From a virus (taxonomy: Duplodnaviria; Caudoviricetes), in IMG/VR virus record IMGVR_UViG_3300012347_000137, positions 1 through 39,278 of that record: 39,278 nucleotides of DNA, one strand, 5' to 3'. Below the pieces are notes generated by a model. The model had not been told where the DNA came from. It did not search any database and was given only the letters and a program-made list of their open reading frames with translations. Below, one piece after another: positions 15,395 through 35,194 of the stretch. Position 1 is the first letter of the stretch; each line of letters starts with the position of its first letter. The translations under genes and the position numbers were made by a program.

Positions 15395-15484
15395 GGAAGC
15401 GTGTCCGAGCGGTTTAAGGAACTGGTCTTGAAAACCAGCGAGGGTGTGAGCCCTCCGTGAGTTCGAATCTCACCGCTTCCGCCA
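15395..15484 (+). tRNA. trnS: tRNA-Ser (anticodon TGA)
   Basis: GGAAGCG/CGCTTCC acceptor stem, CTGGT-CTTGAAA-ACCAG anticodon arm, long variable arm, GTTCGAATC T loop, discriminator G and encoded CCA. 90 nt. Confidence 0.97.
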
Positions 15485-31771: not shown

Positions 31772-32635
31772 ATGCCAATTTGGAAGCAACGCATGTTCTC
31801 GCGCCTAATGAAACCAGCCGATGGCGAAGGCAACGACCTTGGCGGTGGCTCTGCCACTGAGGAAGTCGTAACCGACGAAGCGGGCGCAGAGAGCACGGAC
31901 GAACCAAGTGCAACCGAAGAAGCCGCCGACGCCATTACCGACGATGGCACGCAGGACTTGCCAACCGACAAGCCGCAGTCATCCAAAATGATGGCCATGC
32001 TTGATGAGATTTCAAGCGACAAGCCTGCCGCTGGCGACGTGAAGCCCGCAGCTCCAAAGCCAGAAGACGAGGTAAAGCCTGCCGCCAACGTGGACGAGCA
32101 GCGCACACCAGAGCAAGAAGAAGCCGAATTGCTCGAAGGCGTGAAGTCAGAGCGCGGCAAAGACCGCATCCGCCAAGTGTTTGCCAAGAGCAAGCAGCTC
32201 GAACAGGACATGACCGAGTTCAAGCAGTTGGTGACATCCACAGGCATGAGCCCACAAGACTTTGCGCAGACCTTGGAGTTTGGCCGCTTGGTCAACTCAG
32301 GCGATGAGAAAGACATCCGCGTTGCGCTCGAAATGATTGAGGGCCAGCGTGCCGCGTTGTATCAAAAGCTAGGCGTGGAAGCGCCCGGAATCGACTTGCT
32401 CGAAGGTCAAGACGACCTCAAGGCAGCCGTGGACAACATGGAAATCACCCGCGACAAAGCCGTGGAGCTGGCCAAGTTTCGCAAGAGCGAAGCAGCCAAG
32501 GCGCAGCAGCAACAGCAGGTGCAAGCCAGCACTGAGCGCCAGCAGCAGTTTCAACAAACCGTGCAGAGCGCAGCGGGCGCGATGGAGGCGTATCTCAGCA
32601 CACGCGCCAATGAGGTGGACACCCAGCACGCATGA
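31772..32635 (+). CDS. Scaffolding protein, N-terminal part
   Basis: Acidic disordered N-terminus and Gln-rich coiled coil, between portal and capsid. Appears to continue in the -1 frame. Confidence 0.65.
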   Translation: MPIWKQRMFSRLMKPADGEGNDLGGGSATEEVVTDEAGAESTDEPSATEEAADAITDDGTQDLPTDKPQSSKMMAMLDEISSDKPAAGDVKPAAPKPEDEVKPAANVDEQRTPEQEEAELLEGVKSERGKDRIRQVFAKSKQLEQDMTEFKQLVTSTGMSPQDFAQTLEFGRLVNSGDEKDIRVALEMIEGQRAALYQKLGVEAPGIDLLEGQDDLKAAVDNMEITRDKAVELAKFRKSEAAKAQQQQQVQASTERQQQFQQTVQSAAGAMEAYLSTRANEVDTQHA

Positions 32636-32877
32636 AGGTGATTACTTCGCACTTTCAGAACCCGGCCAACCTGCAAGCATTCATCACGACTTACCAACCC
32701 AACCAATGGGCTGCGACCATCAAGATGATGTATGACGGCATCGTGGTGCCACCAACGCAGCAGGCAAACCAGCCGCAGCCGATTCGCTCGCGTCCATCGC
32801 AACTGGGTGCACCAGCCGCTCAAGGTGCAACGCCTGCCGACCGTTTGGCGCAGCGCCTCGACAACATGGGAATTTGA
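32632..32877 (+). CDS. Scaffolding protein, C-terminal part (frame-disrupted or split)
   Basis: 81 aa ending QPIRSRP...ADRLAQRLDNMGI, resembling a scaffold C-terminal helix. Confidence 0.55.
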   Translation: MKVITSHFQNPANLQAFITTYQPNQWAATIKMMYDGIVVPPTQQANQPQPIRSRPSQLGAPAAQGATPADRLAQRLDNMGI

Positions 32878-33441: not shown

Positions 33442-33443
33442 AG

Positions 33444-33478
33444 AAATATCCGCCGGGCTATTGACTGGCGAATATATT
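33444..33478 (+). promoter_or_regulatory. Putative late promoter (capsid): AAATATCCGCC-N18-TATATT
   Basis: Third copy of the motif, intergenic. Confidence 0.65.
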
Positions 33479-33495
33479 TCTTTCACCAAGTCCTG

Positions 33496-33740
33496 CATTG
33501 TTGTGCCGACTAAGTTGAAAAGAGCGTAAGCGGGAATCGCCATCCGCGCCAACCTAGCCAGCACTTCAATGCGGAACATGCCTCAATACCGCTGTCACCG
33601 CTGGGGTCGCGTCCAGTAGCGCAAAGCGTCAAGGCCAAAGCTGTACCCGAAGTCGCGCCGGGAGCCGAGAAGCTAAATCGACGGGTTTGCGTCCCATCAC
33701 GGCATGAAAGGTGTTTTCTCAACTTTCATTCGGAGCAGTG
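33496..33740 (+). ncRNA. Structured 5' leader of the capsid mRNA
   Basis: Long-range basal stem enclosing four related bulged hairpins and covering the GGAG RBS. Confidence 0.6.
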
Positions 33741-33742
33741 AC

Positions 33743-34789
33743 ATGCCTATTTCAAACGCAGACTTGCAAGAGCTGGCCAAAGTATCTTTGGACGAATACT
33801 TGCGCAACATGCCCGTGGACCAAATCGCCACGGAGCGCCCCCTTCTCAAGAAACTCATGGAAGGCCGCAAATCCTTCTTGGGTGCCAAGCAAAACGTGGT
33901 GGAAAACATCCGTAAAGGCTATGGCTCAAACTTCAACTGGGCTTATGGCGAAGAAACTGTCGCCTTCAACAAGCGCAACACAACTGAGCAAGCCGCATTC
34001 CCGTGGCGTCGTGCCGTTGATGGCTTGTACCTCGACTATGACCGTTTGTTCGGTGCTGGTATCAAGGTGCGCGAAGGCCAACGCGGTGAGTTCAAGTTGG
34101 AGCAAAACGAAAAAGTCCAACTGTTGAACTTGCTCGACGAGCAAATGGAATCTTTGAAAGAAGGTTTCATGCAGAAGCTGGACCTCGAATTGCACCGCGA
34201 CGGTACCCAAGACGCTGACGCCATCGCTGGCCTCGACGTGTTGGTTTCCACTGCCCCAACCACTGGCGTTGTCGGCGGCTTGGATAGCGCGACTGCAACC
34301 TACTGGCGCAACTATGCCAAGACTGGCATTGCGACTGGCACCGTTGGCACATTGGCCACGGAAATGGAAGCAGGCTGGCGCAAGGCCATCAAGGCAGGCG
34401 GCTCGCCAAACTTCATCTTGGCAGGCGGCAAGTTCATCGACGCATACCGCAAGGAAATCGTCGTCACCAACAACGCGCAAGCTGGCACCGCCAAGGTGTT
34501 GGACGCAGGCGTGGGCACTGGTGTGAACACTGGCTTGTATTTCAAGGGCGTGGAAATCATTTGGGACCCACAGTTCGAAGAATTGGATGCGCTGAACAGC
34601 CCCACCGTGCAGTGGGAAAAGCGTTGCTACTTCTTGAACACCAAGCACTTGAAGTACCGCGATGACGACATGGACATCGTGACACCTACACGTCCACACG
34701 ACGTGCTGGCCATGTACGCAATGGTCAACTTGCGCTGCGCACTGTCTACCAGCCGCCGCAACGCTCAAGCTGTCCTCGCCATCGCCTAA
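33743..34789 (+). CDS. Major capsid protein
   Basis: 348 aa from ATG 33743 (RBS GGAG), position in the head module, followed by a terminator. Confidence 0.88.
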   Translation: MPISNADLQELAKVSLDEYLRNMPVDQIATERPLLKKLMEGRKSFLGAKQNVVENIRKGYGSNFNWAYGEETVAFNKRNTTEQAAFPWRRAVDGLYLDYDRLFGAGIKVREGQRGEFKLEQNEKVQLLNLLDEQMESLKEGFMQKLDLELHRDGTQDADAIAGLDVLVSTAPTTGVVGGLDSATATYWRNYAKTGIATGTVGTLATEMEAGWRKAIKAGGSPNFILAGGKFIDAYRKEIVVTNNAQAGTAKVLDAGVGTGVNTGLYFKGVEIIWDPQFEELDALNSPTVQWEKRCYFLNTKHLKYRDDDMDIVTPTRPHDVLAMYAMVNLRCALSTSRRNAQAVLAIA

Positions 34790-34807: not shown

Positions 34808-34838
34808 CCCCGGCTGGCTCACCCCAGTCGGGGTTTTT
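34808..34838 (+). terminator. Rho-independent terminator after capsid gene
   Basis: CCCCGGCTGG-CTCACC-CCAGTCGGGG-TTTTT. Confidence 0.85.
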
Positions 34839-34864
34839 GAAACCAAGAACCCTTTGAGGACACC

Positions 34865-35194
34865 ATGACAAAAGTACCACTGATTCAAGTCACTATTCGC
34901 CGCGATGCGAACACCATCACCCCCGTGACCGTGCCCCCTTACGAGCTGACCATCTTGCGCAATATGTTTGGCAAAGAGAACGTCACCGAAGGCGAGCAAG
35001 TTGGCGAATTCGAAGTCGATTCCGCCAGCGAACATGAGCGCCTGAGCGCCAAGTATGGCCAAGGCAAAGTCGTGAAGGTGTACGGCGACGACGAAGGCGA
35101 GCGCTTGACCGAGTTGGTCGAGAAAGCTGCAATCAAGGCAAAGCCCACAAAGGCAGCCGAAAAAGAGGCCGCAGCTCAAGCCGCTGGCAAGTAA
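34865..35194 (+). CDS. Virion-associated hypothetical protein
   Basis: 109 aa after the capsid gene, RBS GAGGA. Confidence 0.7.
   Translation: MTKVPLIQVTIRRDANTITPVTVPPYELTILRNMFGKENVTEGEQVGEFEVDSASEHERLSAKYGQGKVVKVYGDDEGERLTELVEKAAIKAKPTKAAEKEAAAQAAGK

What the first reader, a model, noticed from the sequence alone, without database searches (positions are those of the whole stretch)
33485..33745. Large structured capsid-mRNA leader with four repeated bulged hairpins and a sequestered RBS
Seen: about 260 non-coding nt between the late promoter and the capsid ATG in an otherwise tightly packed genome. Basal stem: CATTG 33496/CAGTG 33736, CCGA 33506/TCGG 33730 (covers the GGAG RBS), AAGTTGA 33512/TCAACTT 33719. 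Inside are four related units of form GC(T)-bulge-stem-loop(T(C/T)GC)-stem-GC: GC-GTAA-GCGG-GAATCGCCAT-CCGC-GC (33524-33549), GCT-GTCACC-GCTGG-GGTCGCGT-CCAGT-AGC (33591-33620), GCT-GTA-CCCG-AAGTCGCGC-CGGG-AGC (33640-33665) and GCT-AAATC-GACGGG-TTTGCGT-CCCATC-ACGGC (33672-33703). Stems differ in sequence but keep pairing while loops are conserved. CATGCC 33577/GGCATG 33701 competes with the base of unit 4. Inference: a possibly undescribed RNA device, either a multivalent protein-binding switch coupling capsid translation to scaffold/assembly state, or a processed structural RNA. The CGCG loops are self-complementary and could kiss.
Basis: partly seen in the sequence, partly recalled or inferred. 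Interest (0 to 1): 0.82.

Follow-up and report, generated by a model that had tools for sequence, protein, structure and literature searches.

The report
Pseudoknot switch before phage capsid gene
The non-coding stretch in front of this phage's capsid gene is a conserved RNA, absent from Rfam, made of four small pseudoknots whose pairings are kept by matched mutations across a large phage family, and it likely works as a switch that hides or frees the ribosome-binding site of the capsid message.

Summary
The four hairpins are real and belong to a conserved RNA absent from Rfam.

Instead, each hairpin loop pairs with an upstream strand as a pseudoknot. The best-supported knot is 33620-23 with 33688-91: paired in 73 of 73 leaders, with 16 changes per strand but 17 joint changes on the capsid tree. 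A two-knot core closed by helix P2 precedes NF033394 capsid genes down to about 32% identity (77 of 78 loci picked by protein alone).

The strand closing the core can instead pair up to and over the Shine-Dalgarno site, giving ON and OFF folds. It is likely a translation switch; the partner holding it ON is inferred (host S1/30S first, phage protein second).

The scan noted a look-alike on another genome (e1-9702978). A published candidate (DNAVirus_5613) may overlap; I could not read its alignment.

The parts
33444..33478 (+). Predicted late promoter: AAAWWTCC box (33444-51), 21 nt, -10-like hexamer (33473-78); start predicted near 33485
   Evidence: Same box and spacing in 48 of 73 leaders; four + strand copies in the window, each ahead of a gene start. 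Not mapped experimentally.
33490..33577 (+). P1, long 5' hairpin carrying unit 1 at its tip
   Evidence: 23 pairs, 88% paired, 18 with changes on both sides; z -3.4. Replaced by a short hairpin or absent in short forms.
33524..33547 (+). Unit 1: stem 33530-33/33544-47; predicted knot 33524-26 with 33538-40
   Evidence: Stem covaries. Knot 88% paired, no two-sided change among near relatives; GTG/CAC swaps seen by eye in L040 and L048.
33577..33706 (+). P2, helix closing the core (33577-82 with 33701-06); its 3' strand is the switch strand
   Evidence: 96% paired, 4 of 7 pairs with two-sided changes in 36 long forms; 96% in 40 short forms.
33590..33619 (+). Unit 2 (core unit A): stem 33600-04/33613-17; knot 33590-92 and 33594 with 33608-11, one bulged base; conserved AG after it
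   Evidence: Stem is the top covariation signal. Knot invariant in near relatives; two-sided changes in distant ones (GACT/AGTC, GGCG/CGCC, GACG/CGTC rows printed).
33620..33698 (+). Unit 4 (core unit B): long-range knot 33620-23 with loop 33688-91; stem 33680-85/33693-98
   Evidence: Ranks 3, 5 and 6 in an all-column covariation scan, 100% paired; 73 of 73 leaders pair 3 of 3; 16 and 16 changes, 17 joint.
33625..33674 (+). P4 insert carrying unit 3 (stem 33646-49/33659-62; predicted knot 33640-41 and 33643 with 33654-56); long forms only
   Evidence: Base of P4 95% paired with two-sided changes; upper P4 misregistered in my string (46%); knot 87% paired. GTG/CAC and CGT/ACG swaps by eye in L035, L036, L086, L124, L125.
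33697..33734 (+). Predicted OFF hairpin: 3' end of unit 4 plus the P2 3' strand pair with 33720-33734, covering GGA of the Shine-Dalgarno site; excludes P2
   Evidence: -12.5 against -5.5 kcal/mol with the strand withheld; 92% paired in 36 long forms; 7-bp anti-SD helix in short forms.
33732..33745 (+). Shine-Dalgarno GGAG (33732-35) and capsid ATG (33743)
   Evidence: Sequence; conserved columns.
33743..34789 (+). Major capsid gene, NF033394 / PHROG 9953
34808..34840 (+). Terminator-like hairpin with T run after the capsid gene
   Evidence: consensus match only.

Best explanation
The leader is a conserved RNA with four pseudoknot modules, and it likely acts as a translation switch for the capsid gene: one strand (33697-33713) is predicted to pair either with P2 and unit 4, closing the knotted core (ON), or with the bases up to and including the Shine-Dalgarno site (OFF). 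Shown by covariation: P1, P2, the unit stems and the two core knots; both pairings of the switch strand are conserved. Inferred: the ON partner strand is transcribed first, so new transcripts would fold ON and relax to OFF unless held. The holder is most likely host ribosomal protein S1 with the 30S subunit, docking on the knots by shape as at tisB and timP. P1 would also shield the 5' end. My odds: structure 0.9, two-state switch 0.7, switch held by S1/30S 0.4.
For: Structure. Position: in a 71-hit pattern scan that did not encode two stem pairs, the 64 hits with those pairs all preceded this capsid family and the 7 without did not; 77 of 78 distant capsid loci carry the core. Strand: many G-C/G-U and A-U/G-U exchanges on +. 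Two folds: the switch strand gains 6.3 kcal/mol with the pre-SD region against 3.1 (shuffled) and 2.3 (random strand); the hairpin ends within 2 nt of the SD in 42 of 54; the two folds differ by a median 0.45 kcal/mol, nested pairs only. The P2 5' strand lowers the cost of opening the ribosome footprint by a median 2.4 kcal/mol against its shuffle, in 32 of 38. In short forms a 7-bp anti-SD helix has 6 or more pairs in 37 of 40, and all 4 changes at one anti-SD position can coincide with SD-side changes on the tree. Shape over sequence: knot letters vary freely; a like module sits before 6 capsids of another family, PF13252; leader intact in G003, where portal was not found and scaffold is a 36-aa remnant. 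Precedent: tisB (PMC7708055, abstract) and timP (PMC13000454, abstract and first part of Discussion).
Against: No binding, probing or reporter data. Covariation of the OFF helix is modest: 11 and 17 of 500 shuffles as high in short forms, and no two-sided change in the six extension pairs of the long-form alignment; both strands are conserved for other reasons too. In the long forms the computed ON fold does not leave the SD itself more open (0.24 against 0.41 unpaired); only the 8 nt before it open (0.16 to 0.70). In short forms nested energies favour OFF by a median 10 kcal/mol, which a general host factor may not overcome. Knot energies were not computed. In 4 of 6 Polynucleobacter-clade leaders tested the competing hairpin ends 10-22 nt before the SD, and it is weak in all 6, although the knots persist. 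A conserved OFF fold suits a regulated partner better than a constitutive one.
Confidence: 0.4

Rival explanations
1. Same two-state switch, but held ON by a phage late protein (scaffold first, or the conserved small protein encoded after the capsid gene) that binds the repeated modules, so capsid would be made only when its assembly partner is free; or pushed OFF by spare capsid protein.
For: A conserved OFF fold, strongly favoured in short forms. The capsid gene has its own predicted promoter, apart from scaffold. Two distant phages whose capsid gene follows the upstream gene within 16-18 nt have no leader. Two to four module copies suit multivalent binding. Mu Com/mom is a precedent (PMC6483171, passages).
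Against: Leader intact where scaffold is a remnant (G003). The Gp10-like gene was not found with one query in G004 and G005, which hold four-unit leaders (no positive control). Module shared with a different capsid family. The small downstream gene follows 197 of 198 capsid loci, including one without the leader, so it does not discriminate.
Confidence: 0.25
2. A static stabiliser and enhancer: the 5' hairpin and knots slow RNase E and the OFF pairing is incidental.
For: Long forms start with a strong hairpin 0-8 nt after the predicted start. Pseudoknots block RNase E scanning (PMC9943677, passages). PF13252 leaders hold linear knot arrays.
Against: All four knots lie inside stems closed by P1 or P2, and the same paper says stem-loops orthogonal to the path are bypassed. 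It does not explain the conserved anti-SD pairing.
Confidence: 0.17
3. A small-molecule or ion riboswitch whose aptamer is the two-knot core closed by P2.
For: Aptamer plus expression-platform layout; compact core of about 70 nt with conserved unpaired AG and U.
Against: Found only before capsid genes: model searches gave 2 hits in one of 151 genomes, both before this capsid family, and 1 known hit in another 151; these searches are insensitive and missed G004. Loop letters vary; no evident metabolite link.
Confidence: 0.1
4. A processed, packaged or structural RNA, or a put-like antitermination RNA.
For: Large ornate fold directly after a predicted promoter; modules displayed on stem tips.
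Against: No + strand terminator-like site between leader and gene. Contigs from 5 of 6 RNA-library runs bridge leader and gene (contigs show no single transcript). The switch strand is tied to the SD.
Confidence: 0.08

Closest known systems
timP 5' UTR structural switch (timPR toxin-antitoxin; PMC13000454, abstract and first part of Discussion read)
   Same: Pseudoknot in the leader plus a long-range pairing that competes with an RBS-covering hairpin; two exclusive folds; S1/30S proposed.
   Different: Here 2-4 knot modules, a phage capsid gene, no antitoxin RNA found, and the ON partner is transcribed first; no homology test against timP beyond Rfam.
tisB pseudoknot standby site (PMC7708055, abstract read)
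   Same: Pseudoknot about 100 nt or more upstream of a covered RBS, needed for S1 and 30S binding.
   Different: tisB needs processing and a single-stranded standby stretch; here the knots are repeated and enclosed by P2.
Phage Mu mom leader with Com (PMC6483171, passages read)
   Same: Phage mRNA with a translation-inhibiting structure opened by a binder at a neighbouring element.
   Different: No pseudoknot array in mom; no Com-like gene identified here (not searched for).
T4 gene 32 operator pseudoknot (as cited in PMC10690425, passage read)
   Same: Pseudoknot in a phage leader tied to translation control.
   Different: Single knot, autogenous repression; here repeated knots with a 1-2 nt last loop and a competing anti-SD fold.
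Candidate DNAVirus_5613 of PMC10690425 (supplement rows read)
   Same: 86-nt candidate found 52 times within 25 bp upstream of capsid_maj_Podo genes, the same capsid family.
   Different: All 259 members from wetland or peat, 1 covarying pair, no pseudoknot or function stated in the rows seen; its alignment could not be read, so identity is open.

Membership tests
Any Rfam 15 family | Score at or above gathering threshold | tested here: not met
   Window: only a tRNA; leader at E up to 10: three chance hits; 20 related loci: none.
H-type pseudoknot | Hairpin loop pairs with an outside strand, with compensatory changes | tested here: met
   Core unit B. Core unit A.
H-type pseudoknot | Compensatory changes in the knots of units 1 and 3 | tested here: inconclusive
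   87-88% paired, no two-sided change; swaps seen by eye only.
H-type pseudoknot | Classical loop lengths (middle loop 0-1 nt, last loop 3 nt or more; recalled) | tested here: not met
   Middle loop 2-4 nt, last loop 1-2 nt: a non-classical geometry.
Translational riboswitch or protein-dependent leader switch | Two exclusive folds, one covering the SD | tested here: met
   Computed and comparative only; OFF-helix covariation is modest.
Translational riboswitch or protein-dependent leader switch | Ligand binding shifts the fold and the output | not testable with these tools
   Needs probing and reporter assays.
S1-dependent pseudoknot standby site (tisB type) | Pseudoknot upstream of a structured RBS | tested here: met
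S1-dependent pseudoknot standby site (tisB type) | S1/30S binding needs the knot | not testable with these tools
   Needs toeprint and binding assays.
RNase E scanning obstacle | Pairing coaxial with the path from 5' end to gene | tested here: not met
   In the ON fold all knots are enclosed by P1 or P2; they would be on the path only with P2 open.
Kissing-loop RNA | Loops stay complementary to each other | tested here: not met
   Loops change with their own upstream strand, not with each other.
DNAVirus_5613 candidate | Match to its covariance model | not testable with these tools
   Alignment files too large to read.

The most novel reading that the evidence does not exclude
A family-wide RNA sensor of capsid assembly: a two-pseudoknot aptamer, multiplied to four modules, binds free scaffold or another phage late protein and only then frees the capsid RBS, setting capsid-to-scaffold ratio after transcription.
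Probability: 0.22. Interest if true: 0.9.

Novelty: new variant of a known kind. Interest (0 to 1): 0.74.

Why it matters
How phages with a separate capsid promoter match capsid output to scaffold is little studied. This element gives a precise, testable model: named base pairs for an ON and an OFF fold, natural two-, three- and four-module versions, and prophage copies in cultured Burkholderiales. The core is near-universal in the part of the NF033394 family sampled, so it is a new RNA family worth an Rfam entry. The 70-nt double-knot core with unusual loop lengths is a good structure target and a possible part for synthetic translation switches.

Tried and rejected
Single-sequence folding: uninformative (z 0.22 whole leader; z +1.7 core). 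RNAalifold on the first alignment proposed a pairing over the RBS that did not fit the covariation scan. A conserved in-frame upstream start at 33704: rejected, frame not kept (9, 8 and 14 in the three frames). Canonical sigma-70 promoter: none found; TTGAC at 33461 has no -10 at 17 nt and is missing in the Polynucleobacter clade. My first parse of unit-B loops was misregistered and discarded (redone); one search crashed (redone). Capsid relatives in the PDB by sequence: none. Atlas search for the 109-aa protein: only unnamed clusters below 0.9. L225 capsid alone found only itself. Parts without RNA-contig cover are not used as evidence; X7 and X8 contigs stop at 33616 and 33615, a weak hint at best since no DNA run was laid. 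Literature: ten searches; none listed a paper describing this leader. Passages of PMC5737381 name no capsid motif. Of the PMC10690425 supplements, the two zip files and three large files could not be searched and one table was cut, and these may hold the motif.

Full report
Setting. The window is a 39-kb temperate phage genome with integrase, repressor, terminase, portal and a major capsid gene at 33743-34789 (NF033394). The gap 33442-33742 holds the finding. There is no Rfam match in the window, in the leader at E up to 10, or in 20 related loci. Folded alone, the leader is no more stable than shuffles (z 0.22).

Capsid-based searches gave 53 viral loci, 47 genome loci and more by pattern. 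On 32 near relatives the proposed basal stem is 61% paired and no better than shuffled partners (263 of 500). The GCT/AGC stems that define the 'bulges' are 68% paired (46 of 500). My model is 87% paired over 74 pairs, 41 with changes on both sides, 0 of 500, and about 40% paired when slid. The shuffle control ignores kinship, so I also counted changes on a tree (below). Frequent G-C/G-U and A-U/G-U exchanges point to RNA on the + strand.

The real anatomy. After an earlier scan note mentioned a pseudoknot I looked for one. An all-column covariation scan on 52 leaders put the unit-2 stem first and second, and three pairs between 33620-23 and the unit-4 loop 33688-91 third, fifth and sixth, each 100% paired. 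Of 79 non-redundant leaders, 73 had a parsable core; the 6 dropped were L044, L172, L207, L281 and two distant phages without the leader, L054 and L055. All 73 pair 3 of 3 in this knot (71 Watson-Crick; two rows read by eye), in five distinct Watson-Crick letter sets. On a capsid tree each strand needs 16 changes and the two together 17. Unit 2 forms the same kind of knot with 33590-94. It is invariant in near relatives but swaps on both sides in distant ones. Units 1 and 3 fit the same pattern, supported only by 87-88% pairing and swaps seen by eye. Because loops change with their own upstream strand, kissing through CGCG is excluded. The last loop of each knot is only 1-2 nt, unlike classical H-type knots (recalled), so the 3D form is open. 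The core is P2 enclosing unit A, a conserved AG and unit B. The window's long form adds a knot on the tip of P1 and another on P4, which is inserted inside knot B.

Distribution. In a pattern scan that left two stem pairs unspecified, 64 of 71 hits had those pairs and all 64 preceded this capsid family; the other 7 did not (many hits repeat contigs already held). A model of the short core hit 77 of 78 capsid loci chosen by protein alone (80 of 364 were returned, two left out); 35 representatives are 32-45% identical to the window capsid. Of 8 metagenome hits, 7 preceded the capsid and 1 ended at the contig edge. Four cultured phages with 22-27% identical capsids gave no model hit. One module with swapped knot letters lies at one place before 6 PF13252-family capsids, among arrays of a different knot (background 12 such patterns per 39-kb strand; only L288 scored with the model). 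Model searches of two samples of 151 bacterial genomes found capsid-linked hits only, with low sensitivity.

Promoter and expression. A box AAAWWTCC, 21 nt and a -10-like hexamer precede 48 of 73 leaders and occur four times on the + strand of the window, each ahead of a gene. This predicts a start near 33485, five bases before P1. Contigs from five of six RNA-library runs bridge leader and capsid gene (X1, X2, X3, X7, X8; X4 reaches only 26 nt in). Contigs show neither strand nor a single transcript, and the runs were chosen for holding this region.

The switch. The 3' strand of P2 has a second partner. In the window, 33697-33713 can pair with 33720-33734, covering GGA of the SD. Over 54 leaders (6 of the Polynucleobacter clade included, L125 dropped, 7 P2 strands set by hand) this pairing gains 6.3 kcal/mol against 3.1 and 2.3 in two controls, is significant in 24 and 36 of 54, ends within 2 nt of the SD in 42, and is nearly isoenergetic with P2 (median 0.45). 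Both pairings are kept in 36 long forms (96% and 92%), and three-way letter changes are visible in L019, L020, L135, L042 and L048. The P2 5' strand eases opening of the ribosome footprint more than its shuffle in 32 of 38. In 40 short forms the 3' strand of unit B with the next three bases is a direct anti-SD: 6 or more of 7 pairs in 37, 7 of 7 in 24, while the ON fold is 92% paired. Against this reading: OFF-helix covariation is modest (11 and 17 of 500; no two-sided change in six extension pairs); the computed ON fold of long forms leaves the SD no more open, only the 8 nt before it; short forms favour OFF by about 10 kcal/mol without knot energies; and in the Polynucleobacter clade the competing hairpin is weak and mostly ends far from the SD.

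Mechanism. Shown: fold, distribution, two conserved pairings of one strand. Inferred: the ON partner is made first, so new mRNA would be ON and decay to OFF unless something binds the knotted core. I rank host S1/30S first: knot shape is kept while letters vary, the module serves two capsid families, and the leader persists in G003 where portal was not found and scaffold is a remnant. Precedents are tisB (abstract) and timP (abstract and first part of Discussion). A phage protein, as with Mu Com (passages), is second, since a conserved OFF fold suits regulation. A pure RNase E shield is third, because the knots sit inside closed stems, which RNase E is reported to bypass (passages).

Novelty. 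It works like known pseudoknot-assisted translation switches but is a member of no Rfam family. Ten literature searches listed no description. A bulk-predicted candidate, DNAVirus_5613, lies before the same capsid family and may be part of it; its alignment was unreadable. The scan has noted a look-alike leader on another genome and knot arrays before other capsid genes; these are unchecked notes, not support. Verdict: real, new variant of a known kind, interest 0.74.

Noticed in passing
window 6095, 14070, 26690, 33444 (+): Four copies of a predicted late-promoter motif (AAAWWTCC, 21 nt, -10-like), ahead of the 2613-aa gene, lysis genes, the RusA/terminase region and capsid; the activator is unknown.
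   Followed up: partly
window 33442-33482: Strong inverted repeat over the promoter (z -4.8); in near relatives TTGAC is the loop of a conserved hairpin in the spacer, in distant ones it sits at -35 with a 15-nt spacer. Unexplained.
   Followed up: partly
window 31772-32877: The putative scaffold gene is split by a one-base gap near 32619; L001-L004 have one 368-369 aa ORF and contigs of two runs lack the gap. Probably an assembly error.
   Followed up: yes
L285-L287 (G001-G003); genus search: Compact Polynucleobacter elements with capsid, a small gene, holin and peptidase and no match to the window's tail genes in 20 kb. Capsid matches in 15 of 61 genomes, 97-100% identical; portal not found in G003. 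Satellite-like or domesticated capsid cassette.
   Followed up: partly
L288-L342, about 200 nt before the PF13252 capsid gene: Arrays of 2-5 copies of another pseudoknot-like repeat (GCCGCCGGG ... GGGCG) in capsid leaders.
   Followed up: partly
window 34865-35194: 109-aa gene of no known family; a homolog follows 197 of 198 capsid loci.
   Followed up: partly
window 15395-15481: tRNA gene beside the end of the integrase gene, possibly part of the attachment site.
   Followed up: no
L078 1453-1538 (-): One unit-A-like hairpin right after a tRNA-like 3' end, no capsid gene nearby; may be chance.
   Followed up: partly
L125, between P5 and the SD: About 135 extra bases with a long inverted repeat inserted into an otherwise intact leader.
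   Followed up: no
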